Shown here: one piece after another, positions 15,113-18,680 of the stretch
Numbering within the stretch: position 1 is the stretch's first letter
How the letters are laid out: each line of letters begins with the position of its first letter
Source of the DNA: a virus
Lineage: Duplodnaviria; Heunggongvirae; Uroviricota; Caudoviricetes
DNA: 18,838 bases
Virus record (IMG/VR): IMGVR_UViG_3300037743_000091
Direction: 5' to 3' (one strand)
Program-made: the position numbers and the translations under genes
The notes under the pieces: generated by a model
Seen by the model: only the letters and a program-made list of their open reading frames with translations
Told to the model about the DNA's origin: nothing
Database searches by the model: none

Positions 15113-15250
15113 TTACTCCTCCCTCTTGGGTCGTCCGGTACAGCGCGGGTTCCCTTCGCAGGTGCAGTCGTACCCGCCACCAACGATGGGAGGGCACCGC
15201 CCGCAGCAGTGCTCCGGACGGGGCCCTCCCTCGACCTCCAGATCCGGCAT
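15113..15250 (-). CDS. Cys-rich microprotein (45 aa), translationally coupled to rsr
   Basis: ATG overlaps the rsr stop (TGATG at 15250). Sequence MPDLEVEGGPRPEHCCGRCPPIVGGGYDCTCEGNPRCTGRPKREE. It fills the intergenic gap exactly. Too short for the ORF track. Confidence 0.7.
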   Translation of the reverse strand: MPDLEVEGGPRPEHCCGRCPPIVGGGYDCTCEGNPRCTGRPKREE

Positions 15251-16947
15251 CAGACCTTCCCGGCGATGAAGTCCGAGATGATGCGCGGCGCTGAGGAATC
15301 GAACCCTACGACGTCGAGCGCGTTCTGATCCTGGGGGTCCGCGATCGTGAAGCCCGTGGAGGTCATACCCACCACGATCAGCTTCGCGTCCGCGATCCCG
15401 CAGGACTTGCGGTACTGGCGCAGGGCCTCCATCGGCTGGACCTTACCGGCGTACGTCTCCGAGTCCGTGTAGATCACGAAGGCGTCGTACTTGCGCCCCT
15501 GACCCTCGGCCCAGAGCATCGGCAGGGCGCAGTCCGTTGCACCCATGCGGAGGTTCCGGACAGTCCGCAGGTTGTCGTCCAGGCGACGCTGAGGCGACAG
15601 CGTGATCTCCTCGATGCCATCCCGACCTCCCCAGGCAGAACGCTGTGAGTGAGCGGACCAACCCGTCGAGGTGAATGCCACGGTGTCCGTGGTGTTCGGG
15701 TCCGCCGCGAGAGTCGCGATTGCCATGGCGGCAGAACCCTCACGCGCGCTGACGTTCGAGTTCATGATGTTGTACATCCCCATCGAACCCGAGATGTCCA
15801 GAGCGATGCACACGCGCTTCCCCGTGGGCTCGACGTTCTGGAACGCGAGACGGAACGCCTTGTCCAGTGCGTCCACGATCGGCTGCCGAGGCGTCCACGT
15901 GAGCGAGCCACGGAAGCCTCCCCCCTCGGAGTACGTCTTGAGGGCCAGGAGGACGTTGAACGGGTGTACCCGAGCACGCTGCACGTTCTCCGGATCGGCC
16001 AGGGTACGCACAACCTCACCCTGAACCTTGGCACCGGTCACACCCTGTGTGAACACGTCCAGGGCCGTCATACGCCCGAGGTTCCGCATCATCGCCGTGT
16101 ACGGCAGACGCTTGCCCATGATGAGAGCACGCCACACACCCGGGTCCTTGAGGGAGTCCGTGGGCAGCATCTCCCACGACAGGTCCAGCGCCTCCTTCGG
16201 GTCGAGTTCACCCGACTTGACGCGCTCGAACTGCCCGAGGATGCGAGCAGCCCCGACGTTCTCCGGCGTCGGACCGTTGACCGCGTAGTTGAGCACCTGG
16301 TTCAGCGTGCCGTCCCCCGCCTTCGGGTGCCCGAGGCGCAGAACGTCCCGGTGAACCCAACCGCCCCGCCGCCGGTACTTGAGCACCTGGTAGGCGAGCT
16401 TGTCCACGTCCTGGGCGAGGTACCAGTTCGAGAGCATGGCGCGCAGGCCCCGGCTGCCCTTCGTGTATGCCGAGATGTAGTCGGTGAACTCGAACATGTG
16501 CGTACCCGTACGCACGAACTCCCGGAAGCGCTCCTTGATCGCCTCGCCCACGGGGTGAACCGCGTTGCGCTTGATCGGCGAACCGTTCGGCCGGACACGA
16601 CCGGTGTCCTGAACCTGCGGCTCCGGAATCCGGCTCTTGAGGAGAGCGAGGGCGAAGAGCACCGTGGAGTGACGCGGAGCCGCGTTCGTCACGTTCACGT
16701 CCGCAAGCACCCGGAAGTAACCCTCGGGGTCCTTGTCCGCGTACTCCGTGAGGAACTGGACGCTGTCACGCATGTGCGTGCGCTGATCGACGTAGTAGGT
16801 ACCACCTTCCGCGCCGAGGATCAGGAACCGGCGGAGCCGGTTCGCGTCGCTGACGCCGTAGACGTATCCACCTGCGTTGTTCTCGATCTGGCGGGAATCG
16901 GCACGCTCGGTCTGCGTCGGGATGCCCTGCATGTCGCGGTACTTCAT
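15250..16947 (-). CDS. rsr: Ro60 / TROVE-domain RNA-binding protein (Rsr) with C-terminal vWA domain
   Basis: 565 aa. N-terminal NNAGGYVY...RLRRFLILGAEGGTYY, RTGTHMFEF, YQVLKYRRRGGWVHRDVLRLGHP, LPYTAMMRNLGRMT and RVHPFNVL. vWA MIDAS ALDISGSM, GATDCALPM, VIYTDSET, TIADP..LDVVGFD. RBS AAGGAGA. Confidence 0.97.
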   Translation of the reverse strand: MKYRDMQGIPTQTERADSRQIENNAGGYVYGVSDANRLRRFLILGAEGGTYYVDQRTHMRDSVQFLTEYADKDPEGYFRVLADVNVTNAAPRHSTVLFALALLKSRIPEPQVQDTGRVRPNGSPIKRNAVHPVGEAIKERFREFVRTGTHMFEFTDYISAYTKGSRGLRAMLSNWYLAQDVDKLAYQVLKYRRRGGWVHRDVLRLGHPKAGDGTLNQVLNYAVNGPTPENVGAARILGQFERVKSGELDPKEALDLSWEMLPTDSLKDPGVWRALIMGKRLPYTAMMRNLGRMTALDVFTQGVTGAKVQGEVVRTLADPENVQRARVHPFNVLLALKTYSEGGGFRGSLTWTPRQPIVDALDKAFRLAFQNVEPTGKRVCIALDISGSMGMYNIMNSNVSAREGSAAMAIATLAADPNTTDTVAFTSTGWSAHSQRSAWGGRDGIEEITLSPQRRLDDNLRTVRNLRMGATDCALPMLWAEGQGRKYDAFVIYTDSETYAGKVQPMEALRQYRKSCGIADAKLIVVGMTSTGFTIADPQDQNALDVVGFDSSAPRIISDFIAGKV

Positions 16948-16967: not shown

Positions 16968-17008
16968 AAAAAGCGAGTGGCCCCGTCTCCGAAGAAACGG
17001 GGCCACTC
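16968..17008 (-). terminator. intrinsic terminator between Y RNA array and rsr
   Basis: Minus strand GAGUGGCCCCGUUUC-UUCG-GAGACGGGGCCACUC-GC-UUUUU, ending about 20 nt before the rsr ATG. Confidence 0.8.
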
Positions 17009-17015
17009 TCTGGGG

Positions 17016-17085
17016 TCAGCGGATAAGTAATGATGTTCGGGTGTGTTCACCATAAGAAGATAACCGAACATCAGCGACCCGCTGA
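17016..17085 (-). ncRNA. short Y RNA-like unit Y7 (70 nt; Lys-CUU-like loop)
   Basis: UCAGCGG-GUCG...UUAU-CCGCUGA terminal helix. Inner stem UGAUGUUCGG/CCGAACAUCA. UAUC-UUCUUAU-GGUG hairpin. Confidence 0.8.
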
Positions 17086-17094
17086 TACAAGTGA

Positions 17095-17165
17095 GTGGCA
17101 GATAAAGGAAACTGGAATCGGGGGAATCATTAGCATTGATAACCGAATCCAGGGCGACCCGCCAC
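17095..17165 (-). ncRNA. short Y RNA-like unit Y6 (71 nt; Ser-GCU-like loop)
   Basis: GUGGCGG-GUCG...UUAU-CUGCCAC. Inner stem CUGGAUUCGG/CCGAUUCCAG. AUCA-AUGCUAA-UGAU hairpin. Confidence 0.8.
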
Positions 17166-17180
17166 AGTATTTAATTGTTG

Positions 17181-17320
17181 AGCGTGGCAGATAAATGATC
17201 AGGATTCGGGGTTGGACGGCTGCTCTGCCACTTGAGCTATACCCCAGGTAACTGGGGCAAGAGGAATCGAACCTCTAACATGCTGTTTTTGATAACCGAA
17301 GCCTTTCGACCCGCCACGCT
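17181..17320 (-). ncRNA. YrlA-type Y RNA unit Y5 (140 nt; permuted tRNA module, CAA-like heptamer)
   Basis: AGCGUGGCGG-GUCG...UUAU-CUGCCACGCU. T arm AGAGG-UUCGAUU-CCUCU. Loop-closed acceptor UGCCCCAG-UUAC-CUGGGGUA. D arm GCUC-AAGUGGCA-GAGC. Confidence 0.9.
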
Positions 17321-17333
17321 ATGAAATTGTGAA

Positions 17334-17402
17334 ACGGCAGATAAGAGAATTGAAATCGGGATGATCGTTTCAGGTGATAACCGACCTCAGGCGACCCGCC
17401 GT
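17334..17402 (-). ncRNA. short Y RNA-like unit Y4 (69 nt; Phe-GAA-like loop)
   Basis: ACGGCGG-GUCG...UUAU-CUGCCGU. Inner stem UGAGGUCGG/CCGAUUUCA. Loop contains CUGAAAC. Confidence 0.8.
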
Positions 17403-17418
17403 ATGTTGAGTTGTTAGG

Positions 17419-17491
17419 TGTGGTAGATAAGTGAGTGGAATCGGGGGAGTTCTTTTGCGAAAAGATAACCGAATCCGTTCGACCCACCACA
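17419..17491 (-). ncRNA. short Y RNA-like unit Y3 (73 nt; Ala-CGC-like loop)
   Basis: UGUGGUGG-GUCG...UUAU-CUACCACA. Inner stem GGAUUCGG/CCGAUUCC. UCUU-UUCGCAA-AAGA hairpin. Confidence 0.8.
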
Positions 17492-17504
17492 GTACTAAGT
17501 GGGA

Positions 17505-17644
17505 GTGGCAGATAAATTGGGTGTGCATCGGATATATACCAGTGCGCTAACCGAGCTGCGCTACCTCCCGCTGTTGCCGGGAGGAGAGGATTTGAACCTC
17601 TGACCCCTGGTTCCTGAGATAACCGATACGTGACGACCCGCCAC
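17505..17644 (-). ncRNA. YrlA-type Y RNA unit Y2 (140 nt; permuted tRNA-Pro-like body, CAG heptamer)
   Basis: GUGGCGG-GUCG...UUAU-CUGCCAC. T arm AGAGG-UUCAAAU-CCUCU. Acceptor CCUCCCG/CGGGAGG closed by a loop. D arm GCGC-AGCUCGGUUA-GCGC. Anticodon stem CUGGU/ACCAG. Confidence 0.9.
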
Positions 17645-17758
17645 AATGTGAAGTTGTTGGTCCTGCTGGTAGAACGGGCTGACCTATCATCACAAGTCGC
17701 TGAGCGAGAGTGACAGGAATCAGCAGCCGGTACGGTTCACCCGTAGCGTTCAAGTAGT

Positions 17759-17897
17759 CCTGACAGATAAAGAGTGAGCATCGGGTTTAAGCGCTCTAAC
17801 CAGTTGAGCTACCCCCGCCGTGTGAGCCGGGGGACGGGGCTCGAACCCGCAACCTCTCCATTACAAGTGGGTAACCGATCCTCAGCGACCCGTCAGG
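17759..17897 (-). ncRNA. YrlA-type Y RNA unit Y1 (139 nt; permuted tRNA-Thr(UGU)-like module)
   Basis: CCUGACGG-GUCG...UUAU-CUGUCAGG. CCA-CUUGUAA-UGG anticodon hairpin. T arm GCGGG-UUCGAGC-CCCGU. Acceptor CCCCCG/CGGGGG. D arm GCUC-AACUGGUUA-GAGC. Confidence 0.9.
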
Positions 17898-18496: not shown

Positions 18497-18497
18497 G

Positions 18498-18571
18498 TGA
18501 CCCCGGTGGGATTCGAACCCACACTGTCCGCTACTTGAAGGCGGCGCCTCTGCCAGTTGGGCTACGGGGCC
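18498..18571 (-). tRNA. tRNA-Leu(CAA), short variable loop, CCA not encoded
   Basis: GGCCCCG/CGGGGUC acceptor, A73. D arm GCC-CAACUGGCAGA-GGC. Anticodon loop UUCAAGU (G37) with a C31.A39 mismatch. T arm GUGGG-UUCGAAU-CCCAC. Resembles the actinobacterial short-arm tRNA-Leu(CAA). Confidence 0.9.
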
Positions 18572-18574
18572 TCG

Positions 18575-18680
18575 TGGTTCCGGCAGGGTTCGAACCTGCA
18601 CTGATACGCGGGTGTGGACGCCGCGCTGCCTCTACCTCGGCCTACTTCCTAGGATTTCGACCTTGTTGGGCTACGGAACC
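18575..18680 (-). tRNA. atypical Leu-scaffold tRNA-like RNA (106 nt) with D-loop insertion and 9-nt anticodon loop
   Basis: Perfect acceptor GGUUCCG/CGGAACC with A73. T arm GCAGG-UUCGAAC-CCUGC. D stem GCC/GGC with a 38-nt loop. 6-bp stem GCGCGG/CCGCGU with loop CGUCCACAC. Confidence 0.7.

What the first reader, a model, noticed from the sequence alone, without database searches (positions are those of the whole stretch)
17052..17867. Each Y RNA displays a different tRNA anticodon loop: candidate Ro60-bound anticodon-decoy library
Seen: within 3 nt of the conserved UCGG-UUA(U/C)C motif, every unit has a heptamer obeying anticodon-loop rules (U33, purine 37). Y1 CUUGUAA = Thr UGU (17861-17867). 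Y2 CUCAGGA = Leu CAG with G37 (17612-17618). Y3 UUCGCAA = Ala CGC (17455-17461). Y4 CUGAAAC = Phe GAA (17367-17373). Y5 AUCAAAA = Leu CAA (17287-17293). Y6 AUGCUAA = Ser GCU (17130-17136). Y7 UUCUUAU = Lys CUU (17052-17058). In Y1, Y3, Y6 and Y7 the heptamer is closed by a 3-4 bp stem. In Y2 and Y5 it sits at the anticodon position of the permuted tRNA. Y4 is imperfectly closed. All seven triplets differ. Known: described YrlA RNAs replace the anticodon loop with the Ro-binding domain; hosts use anticodon nucleases (PrrC, VapC, PARIS AriB) against phage; Rsr loci are linked to tRNA damage and repair. Inference: these RNAs cannot be aminoacylated and may be Ro60-stabilised baits that titrate or sense host anticodon nucleases or tRNA-modifying enzymes, or recruit Ro60/PNPase to them. 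I know of no description of such a system. The register was chosen by eye, so chance matches need testing.
Basis: partly seen in the sequence, partly recalled or inferred. Interest (0 to 1): 0.95.

Follow-up and report, generated by a model that had tools for sequence, protein, structure and literature searches.

The report
Anticodon-arm mimics in phage Y RNAs
A phage carries seven small Ro60-partner RNAs in a row, and several of them (like many relatives in other actinobacterial phages) display a genuine-looking tRNA anticodon stem-loop, a feature that published bacterial Y RNAs are said to lack; what the loops are for is still untested.

Summary
The seven heptamers are at the stated coordinates, on the minus strand, in seven Y RNA-like units upstream of a phage rsr (Ro60) gene. 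The by-eye rule is too loose to mean anything in this window alone: all seven match by chance with P about 0.10, and "all triplets differ" has P about 0.71.

Wider evidence rescues part of the claim. I fixed the register from the T loop instead of by eye. In 64 distinct long Y units from viral contigs, 50 then show U33 plus R37, against 10.1 ± 2.8 in shuffles. Closed loops read C32-U33-NNN-R37-A38, avoid A34, and have G37 only after G36, like real tRNAs from the same contigs. The Y stem is inserted into the 5' strand of a covarying anticodon stem.

Three orthologous arrays (Rsr 64-71% identical) support Y1, Y2, Y3 and Y6. Y5 is weak. Y4 has a conserved 9-nt loop. Y7 has a pyrimidine-rich, YrlB-like loop.

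In Y1 and Y6 the triplet changes between phages while the scaffold stays fixed. Chen et al. 2014 saw this hairpin but called it a variable arm.

The Ro60-bound decoy idea remains plausible and untested. This is a new variant of YrlA/YrlB.

The parts
15250..16947 (-). rsr gene, a Ro60 ortholog of 565 aa
   Evidence: Pfam vWA_Ro60 5.4e-56 and TROVE 6.4e-38. PHROG 850 RNA-binding protein 4.2e-66. 353 phage records hold a homolog; the best are Gordonia phages at 45% identity.
16972..17011 (-). Terminator-like G+C-rich hairpin followed by a U run, between Y7 and the rsr start
   Evidence: Read directly from the sequence. The same hairpin and position are kept in L001, L383, L384 and L385.
17015..17085 (-). 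Y7, a short unit. Apical 5-bp stem UUAUC/GGUGA closes the 7-nt loop UUCUUAU (17052-17058).
   Evidence: Fold z = -5.5; CM R1 76.9 bits. Orthologs have UUCUUUU, UUCUUCU and UUCUUAU, so position 37 is not kept as a purine. This is a pyrimidine-rich, YrlB-like loop.
17094..17165 (-). Y6, a short unit. Stem AUCA/UGAU closes the 7-nt loop AUGCUAA (17130-17136). Anticodon-arm-like.
   Evidence: Fold z = -4.3. In orthologs the stem is invariant and the loop reads CUCACAU, CUUCCUA or CUUUCAC. U33 is kept in 4 of 4 and R37 in 3 of 4.
17183..17317 (-). Y5, a long unit with a permuted tRNA-like domain (T arm, closed acceptor hairpin, D arm). The heptamer AUCAAAA (17287-17293) precedes the anticodon-stem 3' strand ACAGC.
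   Evidence: Rfam YrlA 29.7 bits, below the cutoff. The T-anchored register gives this heptamer. Its U33 belongs to the fixed UUAUC motif, and orthologs shift the register, so support is weak.
17333..17402 (-). Y4, a short unit.
   Evidence: Fold (z = -1.4). The loop ACCUGAAAY is conserved in L383 and L384. It is not a closed 7-nt loop.
17419..17490 (-). Y3, a short unit. Hairpin UCUU[UUCGCAA]AAGA (17455-17461). Anticodon-arm-like by orthology.
   Evidence: The minimum-free-energy fold gives 6 bp and a triloop. The L383 ortholog is a clean 5 bp plus 7 nt, UCUUU[CUGCUAA]AAAGA.
17504..17644 (-). Y2, a long unit with a tRNA-like domain. The heptamer CUCAGGA (17612-17618) sits at tRNA positions 32-38, with the Y stem entering at 31/32.
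   Evidence: Rfam YrlA 27.1 bits; T-anchored register. The 39-43 strand ACCAG pairs with CUGGU after the D arm. L384 carries a compensatory U28-A42 to C28-G42 change. CUCAGGR is kept in 3 of 4 orthologs.
17645..17758 (-). 114-nt spacer between Y1 and Y2, of unknown nature
   Evidence: The fold is not better than shuffles (z = -1.2). Relatives have only about 20 nt here.
17759..17897 (-). Y1, a long unit and a complete tRNA mimic. It has the anticodon hairpin CCA[CUUGUAA]UGG (loop 17861-17867), variable loop AGGUU, T arm, closed acceptor hairpin and D arm. The Y stem enters between positions 28 and 29.
   Evidence: Rfam YrlA 34 bits, with the hairpin aligned as a 16-nt insertion against the family consensus. 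T-anchored register. Nucleotides 27-28 (CU) pair with 42-43 (AG). In orthologs the only substitutions in the first 47 columns fall at positions 34-35, UGU to GCU.
18497..18571 (-). tRNA-Leu(CAA), just upstream on the same strand and probably in the same transcript
   Evidence: ARAGORN; Rfam tRNA 48.9 bits.
18575..18680 (-). Aberrant tRNA-like gene with large insertions in the D and anticodon regions
   Evidence: Rfam tRNA 32.3 bits, with insertions of 33 and 11 nt. A similar element lies upstream of the L384 array.

Best explanation
**What it is.** The locus is a phage rsr cassette. A run of tRNA-like genes and seven Y RNAs ends at a terminator-like hairpin just before rsr.

**Shared base of each unit.** Each unit forms a basal helix (5' GGGUCG paired with 3' UUAUCY) of the kind that binds Ro60. 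Above it is a covarying upper stem closed by UCGG/CCGA, then the conserved UUAYC.

**The apical module differs between units.**
- Y1 is a whole tRNA mimic that keeps a true anticodon arm: a composite 5-bp stem, a 7-nt loop C32-U33-NNN-A37-A38, and a class-I variable loop. The Y stem branches from the 5' strand of the anticodon stem.
- Y2 and Y5 are tRNA mimics whose anticodon loop is opened at 31/32 by the Y stem.
- Y3 and Y6 are reduced to an anticodon-arm-like hairpin alone.
- Y4 and Y7 carry constant, non-anticodon loops, like YrlB.

**Shown here.** The anatomy, its statistical reality across actinophage Y RNAs, the tRNA-like co-variation of positions 36 and 37, and turnover of the triplet on an otherwise fixed scaffold.

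**Inferred, not shown.**
- The RNAs are cut from one precursor and held by phage Ro60.
- The RNP presents tRNA anticodon stem-loops to proteins that read anticodon loops, such as anticodon nucleases of host defence or toxin-antitoxin systems, or tRNA-modifying enzymes. The RNAs would act as decoys or adaptors in the phage-host conflict over tRNAs.

**My odds.** About 0.9 for the structural reading. About 0.3-0.35 for the protein-directed decoy or adaptor function.
For: **Array and gene.**

**Family-wide register test on 64 distinct long viral units.**
- U33 plus R37 occurs in 50 of 64, against shuffles of 10.1 ± 2.8 (maximum 20 in 2000). Shifting the register gives only 2-16.
- Among loops closed by at least 3 bp, 36 of 37 obey the rule. 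C32 is in 28 of 37, A38 in 28 of 37 and A34 in 0 of 37.

**tRNA-like co-variation.**
- G37 occurs only after G36, 12 of 12 (Fisher 5e-8).
- 237 ordinary tRNAs from the same contigs give the same profile.

**Anticodon stem.**
- The unpaired part of strand 39-43 pairs with nucleotides 27 onward, just after the D arm, in 25 of 35 units. Pair types differ: CU:AG, CG:CG, CC:GG, GC:GC.
- A compensatory 28:42 change is seen in the Y2 ortholog.

**Short units.** 17 of 52 have a closed 7-nt loop with U2 and R6, against 3.7 ± 1.8 in shuffles.

**Orthologous arrays.** The triplet changes on fixed scaffolds in Y1 and Y6.

**Non-cognate bodies.** Class-II anticodons (Leu CAG, CAA and GAG; Ser GCU and UGA; Tyr GUA) sit on bodies with class-I variable loops of 4-5 nt. 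The same Y1 body carries UGU or GCU. Both argue against a decoding role.

**Independent recognition.** ARAGORN and GenBank annotators call such units tRNA-Thr(tgt), tRNA-Arg(tct) and tRNA-Ser(tga) next to Ro genes.

**Cultured phages.** The same loops occur in Rizal (CUGAUAU, AUUGCAA, CUGUCAC) and in Cashline, Sixama and GMA2.

**Context from papers.**
- A phage Ro60-like protein counters a defence system (PMC11482910).
- Actinobacterial hosts carry many anticodon nucleases, and phage tRNAs appear to evade them (PMC10264068).
- M. smegmatis Y RNAs are processed from one precursor upstream of rsr (PMC4201824).
Against: - No expression, Ro60-binding, modification or cleavage data could be obtained.
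- Triplet turnover is also what neutral drift at unconstrained loop positions would give. Other unconstrained parts of Y1, such as the acceptor hairpin, vary as much.
- About two thirds of short units across the family have no anticodon-like loop. Some long units have no anticodon arm at all. The arm is therefore not essential to Y RNA function.
- Within-array triplet diversity is no greater than random.
- No RNA-repair or tRNA-enzyme gene lies in the window.
- The related units are not fully independent, so the shuffle statistics overstate significance somewhat.
Confidence: 0.45

Rival explanations
1. **Inherited scaffold without anticodon-specific function.** The Y RNAs descend from tRNAs. 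The anticodon arm persists because a U-turn heptaloop is a stable folding module, or is a substrate for housekeeping tRNA enzymes that help the RNA mature. The triplet drifts neutrally and has no target.
For: - The triplet varies where other unconstrained positions also vary.
- Many units have lost the arm or replaced it with other loops.
- Within-array diversity is random.
Against: - G37 occurs only after G36 (12 of 12) across different triplets, and A34 is avoided. Both imply selection on the triplet and position 37 together, not only on the U-turn.
- Short units keep only the anticodon-like hairpin after losing the whole tRNA body, which is hard to explain by inertia.
Confidence: 0.3
2. **RNA-directed guide.** The pre-stacked anticodon-like loop pairs with complementary tRNA anticodons (anticodon-anticodon kissing) or with short sites in other RNAs. 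This brings them to Ro60 and its nuclease partner for decay or protection.
For: - Hypervariable loops sit on invariant stems in Y1 and Y6, a pattern typical of specificity loops.
- Y RNAs tether Ro60 to PNPase for degradation of structured RNA (PMC4201824 abstract).
- From general knowledge: complementary anticodons form unusually stable complexes.
Against: - The co-variation of positions 36 and 37 and the C32/A38 preference mirror recognition rules of tRNA enzymes, which three-base pairing does not need.
- No complementary pairs were seen among the window's triplets by inspection.
- Three to five base pairs give little specificity.
Confidence: 0.12
3. [quoted passage not shown]
For: - M. smegmatis YrlA is cut by RNase P and gains CCA in vivo (PMC4201824).
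- Y1 has every tRNA element.
- ARAGORN calls several units tRNAs.
Against: - The same Y1 body carries UGU or GCU.
- Leu, Ser and Tyr anticodons sit on class-I bodies.
- One unit has the stop-reading triplet UUA.
- A Ro60-bound helix would project from the anticodon stem.
- Short units have no acceptor at all.
Confidence: 0.05
4. **Pure coincidence.** The heptamers are chance matches to a loose pattern in variable apical loops.
For: - In the window alone the rule is met by chance in 57-91% of shuffles per unit, with P(all 7) = 0.10.
- Y4, Y5 and Y7 fail in orthologs.
Against: Family-wide enrichment in a register fixed by the T loop, stem covariation, agreement with the real-tRNA profile, and enrichment in short units.
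Confidence: 0.03

Closest known systems
YrlA, the bacterial tRNA-like Y RNA (Rfam RF02553; Chen et al. 2014, PMC4201824; Wang et al. 2018, bioRxiv 10.1101/312249)
   Same: - Encoded next to rsr on the same strand.
- Basal Ro-type helix with a GNCG(AA)-like 5' motif, and the conserved YUAY (here UUAY).
- Permuted order of T arm, closed acceptor hairpin and D arm.
- A stem-loop upstream of the T arm was already noted, and called V.
   Different: - Matches reach only 27-34 bits against a cutoff of 69.
- The published model treats the Y stem as the anticodon stem and states that YrlA lacks the anticodon loop.
- Here the hairpin upstream of T has the full anticodon-arm signature and is followed by a class-I variable loop.
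- Units come in arrays of 4-8 rather than one or two.
[quoted passage not shown] 2014)
   Same: Y7, and loosely Y4, are long hairpins with a Ro-type base and a small constant loop. Y7's loop, UUCUUNU, is pyrimidine-rich.
   Different: Y3 and Y6 instead carry 7-nt loops with U33 and R37 and a changeable triplet.
Phage-encoded tRNAs proposed or shown to evade tRNA-targeting defences (PMC10264068; PMC11555353)
   Same: Phage RNAs with authentic anticodon arms, found in tRNA-rich actinophage gene clusters whose hosts carry anticodon nucleases.
   Different: Those are ordinary, chargeable tRNAs that replace depleted host tRNAs. These units have a closed acceptor, non-cognate bodies and a Ro60-binding helix.
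Anticodon-arm mimics in regulatory RNAs, such as the E. coli thrS operator that binds ThrRS and the tRNA-Lys-like element of HIV-1 (from general knowledge, not checked here)
   Same: A hairpin copies a tRNA anticodon stem-loop in order to engage a protein that reads anticodons.
   Different: Those are single, fixed mimics of one tRNA in an mRNA or genome. Here there are many different triplets on small RNAs tied to Ro60.
Circularly permuted tRNA genes of Cyanidioschyzon merolae (from general knowledge)
   Same: The 3' half of the tRNA is encoded before the 5' half.
   Different: Those mature into normal tRNAs through a circular intermediate. Here the ends form a Ro-type helix and the acceptor is closed by a loop.

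Membership tests
YrlA (RF02553) | Score at or above Rfam's gathering cutoff of 69 bits | tested here: not met
   Y1 scores 34.0, Y5 29.7 and Y2 27.1 bits. No unit passes at the gathering threshold.
YrlA (RF02553) | Encoded close to rsr on the same strand | tested here: met
   The array at 17015-17897 lies directly upstream of rsr at 15250-16947, both on the minus strand.
YrlA (RF02553) | Permuted tRNA-like domain: T arm, closed acceptor hairpin, D arm | tested here: met
   Y1, Y2 and Y5 align to model positions 23-85 with T and D arms. D arms were found at the expected place. Y3, Y4, Y6 and Y7 lack this domain.
YrlA (RF02553) | 5' GNCGAA(N)G motif and conserved YUAY | tested here: met
   GGGUCGAA is present in Y3 and Y5, and GGGUCG in all seven. 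UUAY follows the upper stem in all seven. The motifs are defined in PMC4201824.
YrlA (RF02553) | Bound by Rsr in vivo | not testable with these tools
   This needs immunoprecipitation.
YrlB-type short Y RNA | Long hairpin with a Ro-type base and a small pyrimidine-rich loop | tested here: met
   Y7 has the loop UUCUUAU, with U or C at the sixth position in orthologs. Y3 and Y6 do not fit, because their loops are variable and anticodon-like.
tRNA | Anticodon arm: 5-bp stem and 7-nt loop with U33 and R37 | tested here: met
   Y1 has 3 + 2 bp and the loop CUUGUAA. Y2 has a 5-bp stem formed across the junction. The family profile matches real tRNAs.
tRNA | Free acceptor ends with a 3' CCA site, and a body cognate with the anticodon | tested here: not met
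   The acceptor is closed by a loop and the gene order is permuted. Leu, Ser and Tyr triplets sit on class-I bodies. One body carries two different triplets. Possible processing by RNase P was not testable.
   Only sequence-level mimicry could be shown.

The most novel reading that the evidence does not exclude
Actinobacterial phages carry arrays of Ro60-held anticodon stem-loops whose triplets turn over quickly between related phages. The arrays would be a changeable panel of baits or sensors for host enzymes that cut or modify specific tRNA anticodon loops, making Ro60-Y RNA particles a counter-defence device. This would also give bacterial and phage Ro60 a concrete molecular job.
Probability: 0.25. 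Interest if true: 0.9.

Novelty: new variant of a known kind. Interest (0 to 1): 0.7.

Why it matters
**An open question.** The function of bacterial and phage Ro60-Y RNA particles is still unclear. The published view is that the tRNA-like Y RNA lacks an anticodon loop.

**What changes.** In a large phage family the tRNA mimic includes an authentic anticodon arm. Some Y RNAs are reduced to that arm alone, and the triplet changes between close relatives. This points to anticodon-reading proteins as the partners to look for.

**It is directly testable.** The same loops occur in cultured phages of the laboratory strain M. smegmatis (Rizal/Bxz1 group) and of Gordonia terrae.

**A practical point.** tRNA finders and GenBank records label some of these Y RNAs as tRNA genes. 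This inflates phage tRNA counts and skews anticodon-usage studies.

Tried and rejected
**Searches that found nothing or too little.**
- Rfam at gathering score found no Y RNA in the window.
- Megablast against phages found nothing.
- Protein-pattern scans with Rsr gave one viral locus, none in genomes, and the same contig plus two distant ones in metagenomes.
- The motif scan of bacterial genomes gave almost only chance hits.

- My covariance model of short units (R1) scores long units poorly. I found long units by motif plus T-loop instead.
- RF02553 searches in 151 Actinomycetota and 151 Gammaproteobacteria returned mostly ordinary tRNAs and one true YrlA. Whether bacterial "V" hairpins share the signature is therefore still open.
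- No claim here rests on the unpublished genome G050 listed.

**Ideas tested and dropped.**
- A test for excess triplet diversity within arrays was null.
- The spacer at 17645-17758 does not fold better than shuffles.
- A T-loop reading of the short-unit loops was rejected, because none has the UUCRA consensus.
- A YUNR antisense-loop reading was considered weaker, because position 35 shows no purine preference.

Full report
**Setting**

- The window is phage-like. It holds a tape-measure gene (PhageMin_Tail), minor tail genes, and a 565-aa Ro60 ortholog at 15250-16947 on the minus strand with TROVE and vWA_Ro60 domains.
- No whole genome is held for the window.
- Ro60 homologs occur in 353 phage records, nearly all from actinobacterial hosts. 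The best are Gordonia phages at 45% identity.
- Upstream of rsr on the same strand lie seven tandem units. Each has a 5' GGGUCG, an inner UCGGUUAYC and a 3' UUAUCY.
- Three units (Y1, Y2, Y5) give sub-threshold matches to Rfam YrlA, at 34, 27 and 30 bits against a cutoff of 69. Four units (Y3, Y4, Y6, Y7) are 70-nt hairpins.
- A terminator-like hairpin separates Y7 from rsr.
- A tRNA-Leu(CAA) and an aberrant tRNA-like gene lie just upstream of the array.

**Checking the observation**

- The rule is weak on its own. With the motif fixed and the next 20 nt shuffled, a unit meets "NUNNNRN within offsets -3 to +2" in 57-91% of trials. All seven match in 10% of trials. Seven random triplets differ 71% of the time.
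- The window by itself therefore proves nothing.

**An independent register**

- I collected relatives by scanning viral contigs for the two conserved motifs. I then ran a second scan for the motif followed, at a distance, by a T loop.
- In long units I fixed the register from the T loop: T stem 5 nt, variable loop 4 or 5 nt, anticodon-stem 3' strand 5 nt, then 7 nt. The choice of 4 or 5 was made only by stem pairing.
- Among 64 distinct long units, 50 have U33 and R37. Shuffles give 10.1 ± 2.8, with a maximum of 20 in 2000. Shifted registers give 2-16.
- For the 37 loops closed by at least 3 bp:
  - 36 obey the rule.
  - C32 occurs in 28, A38 in 28, and A34 in none.
- G37 occurs only after G36, 12 of 12 (Fisher 5e-8).
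- Ordinary tRNAs from the same contigs (n = 237) show the same profile: C32 62%, U33 97%, A34 6%, R37 99%, A38 65%, and G37 mostly after G36.
- The 4-5 nt between the hairpin and the T stem read like a class-I variable loop (AGGUC, AGGUU, GGGUC).

**Where the Y stem enters**

- The part of strand 39-43 that is not paired locally pairs with the nucleotides right after the D arm and position 26. This holds in 25 of 35 units, with different pair types: CU:AG, CG:CG, CC:GG, GC:GC.
- The Ro-type helix is therefore an insertion into the 5' strand of a real anticodon stem. It enters at 26/27, 27/28, 28/29 (as in Y1) or 31/32 (as in Y2 and Y5, which opens the loop).

**Short units**

- Of 52 short units found with a covariance model, 17 have a 7-nt loop closed by at least 3 bp with U2 and R6. 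Shuffles give 3.7 ± 1.8, with a maximum of 10 in 2000.
- The rest carry loops of 3-18 nt.
- A subset of short Y RNAs is therefore an anticodon-arm-like hairpin on a Ro-type stem. It is not a general rule.

**Orthologous arrays**

A protein search gave Rsr relatives at 71, 70 and 64% identity. Their contigs carry syntenic arrays, L383 to L385. Unit by unit:

| Unit | Window | Orthologs | Reading |
|---|---|---|---|
| Y1 | CUUGUAA | CUUGUAA in one, CUGCUAA in two | In the first 47 columns the only substitutions besides one G/A change are at positions 34 and 35. L001, a more distant relative, has CUUGAAU. |
| Y2 | CUCAGGA | CUCAGGG in two, ACACAGG in one | Kept in 3 of 4. L384 has a compensatory 28:42 change. 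|
| Y3 | UCUU[UUCGCAA]AAGA | L383: UCUUU[CUGCUAA]AAAGA | The ortholog is a clean 5 bp plus 7 nt. |
| Y4 | ACCUGAAAC | ACCUGAAAU | A conserved 9-nt loop, not an anticodon loop. |
| Y5 | AUCAAAA | CUAAACA, CUGAAAA, UCUGAAA | The register drifts. |
| Y6 | AUCA[AUGCUAA]UGAU | Loops CUCACAU, CUUCCUA, CUUUCAC | Stem invariant, U33 constant, and the other loop positions change. |
| Y7 | UUCUUAU | UUCUUUU, UUCUUCU, UUCUUAU | Triplet conserved, but position 37 is A, U or C. |

- Four of the seven claims stand, one is weak and two fail.
- Triplet diversity within arrays equals random expectation, 1 duplicate pair against 0.91 expected.

**Against a decoding role**

- Leu (CAG, CAA, GAG), Ser (GCU, UGA) and Tyr (GUA) triplets sit on bodies with 4-5-nt variable loops.
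- One Y1 body carries either UGU or GCU.
- One unit has UUA, which would read a stop codon.
- The acceptor is closed by a loop.

**What is already known**

- Chen et al. 2014 found YrlA next to rsr in 254 bacteria and 22 phages. They noted the GNCGAA motif and a conserved YUAY. [quoted passage not shown]
- The crystal-structure paper states that YrlA lacks the anticodon loop (10.1101/312249).
- I found no paper that describes anticodon-loop features or arrays of phage Y RNAs.
- Annotation has already stumbled on the feature:
  - prophiGD43A-5 lists a tRNA-Thr(tgt) and Magritte a tRNA-Arg(tct) beside their Ro genes, both on Y units.
  - ARAGORN calls about a dozen more in my loci.
- Cultured phages show the same loops:
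  - Rizal has three units with CUGAUAU, AUUGCAA and CUGUCAC.
  - Cashline, Sixama and GMA2 have them as well.
- One true gammaproteobacterial YrlA has a 14-nt insertion containing CUAAUAA at the same place. Bacterial YrlAs could not be surveyed properly.

**Mechanism**

- *Shown:* the architecture, its enrichment, stem covariation, tRNA-like identities at positions 36 and 37, and triplet turnover on a fixed scaffold.
- *Inferred from family knowledge:* co-transcription and processing from one precursor, and binding of the basal helix by Rsr.
- *Inferred from context:* the exposed anticodon arms engage proteins that read anticodon loops.
  - Actinobacterial hosts carry many anticodon nucleases, and phage tRNAs are proposed to evade them (PMC10264068).
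  - A phage Ro60-like protein counters a defence system (PMC11482910).
- I rank the readings as follows:
  - protein-directed decoy or adaptor, about 0.3-0.35;
  - inherited scaffold with a drifting triplet, about 0.3;
  - RNA-directed kissing guide, about 0.12;
  - working split tRNA, about 0.05.

**Verdict**

- The functional half is open.
- It is a new variant of the YrlA/YrlB kind. It is of clear interest to the Ro60 field and testable in laboratory phage-host pairs.

Noticed in passing
L378:2537-2615 (Mycobacterium phage prophiGD43A-5) and L379:2539-2615 (Microbacterium phage Magritte): GenBank lists tRNA-Thr(tgt) and tRNA-Arg(tct) directly beside the Ro-like gene. Both sit on Y RNA units, where the anticodon arm plus T arm fool tRNA finders. 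ARAGORN makes about a dozen such calls in the fetched viral loci.
   Followed up: partly
L383:2514-2613 and L384:2511-2611: The closest relatives have an eighth unit between the Y4 and Y5 orthologs. It carries only a T-arm-like hairpin after UUAUC. The window lacks it.
   Followed up: no
window 17645-17758 (minus strand): A 114-nt spacer lies between Y1 and Y2, where relatives have about 20 nt. It does not fold better than shuffles (z = -1.2) and its nature is unknown.
   Followed up: partly
L004:5449-5505 (Gordonia phage GMA2): A Pistol ribozyme match above Rfam's cutoff (56.8 bits against 34.5) lies inside the tRNA, Y RNA and tmRNA cluster, right after tRNA-Trp.
   Followed up: no
L002:4977-5398 and L004:4728-5139: Sixama and GMA2 encode a tmRNA just downstream of rsr. 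Their Y-like units are interspersed among tRNA genes rather than forming one array.
   Followed up: no
window 16972-17011, with the same place in L001, L383, L384 and L385: A strong terminator-like hairpin between the last Y unit and the rsr ribosome-binding site is conserved across relatives. This suggests rsr is expressed by read-through or from a regulated step.
   Followed up: partly
window 18575-18680 (minus strand) and L384:1855-1960: An aberrant tRNA-like gene with large insertions (Rfam tRNA 32.3 bits) sits next to tRNA-Leu(CAA). A similar element precedes the array in a relative, so it is conserved rather than decayed.
   Followed up: no
L383:539-1579, L384:773-1813 and L385:1174-2214: In the three closest relatives a Band_7 (PF01145) gene lies upstream of the Y array. 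The window has small unknown genes there instead.
   Followed up: no
L333:525 (viral contig, long Y unit): One anticodon-like loop reads CUUUAAC. Its triplet UUA would pair with the UAA stop codon.
   Followed up: no
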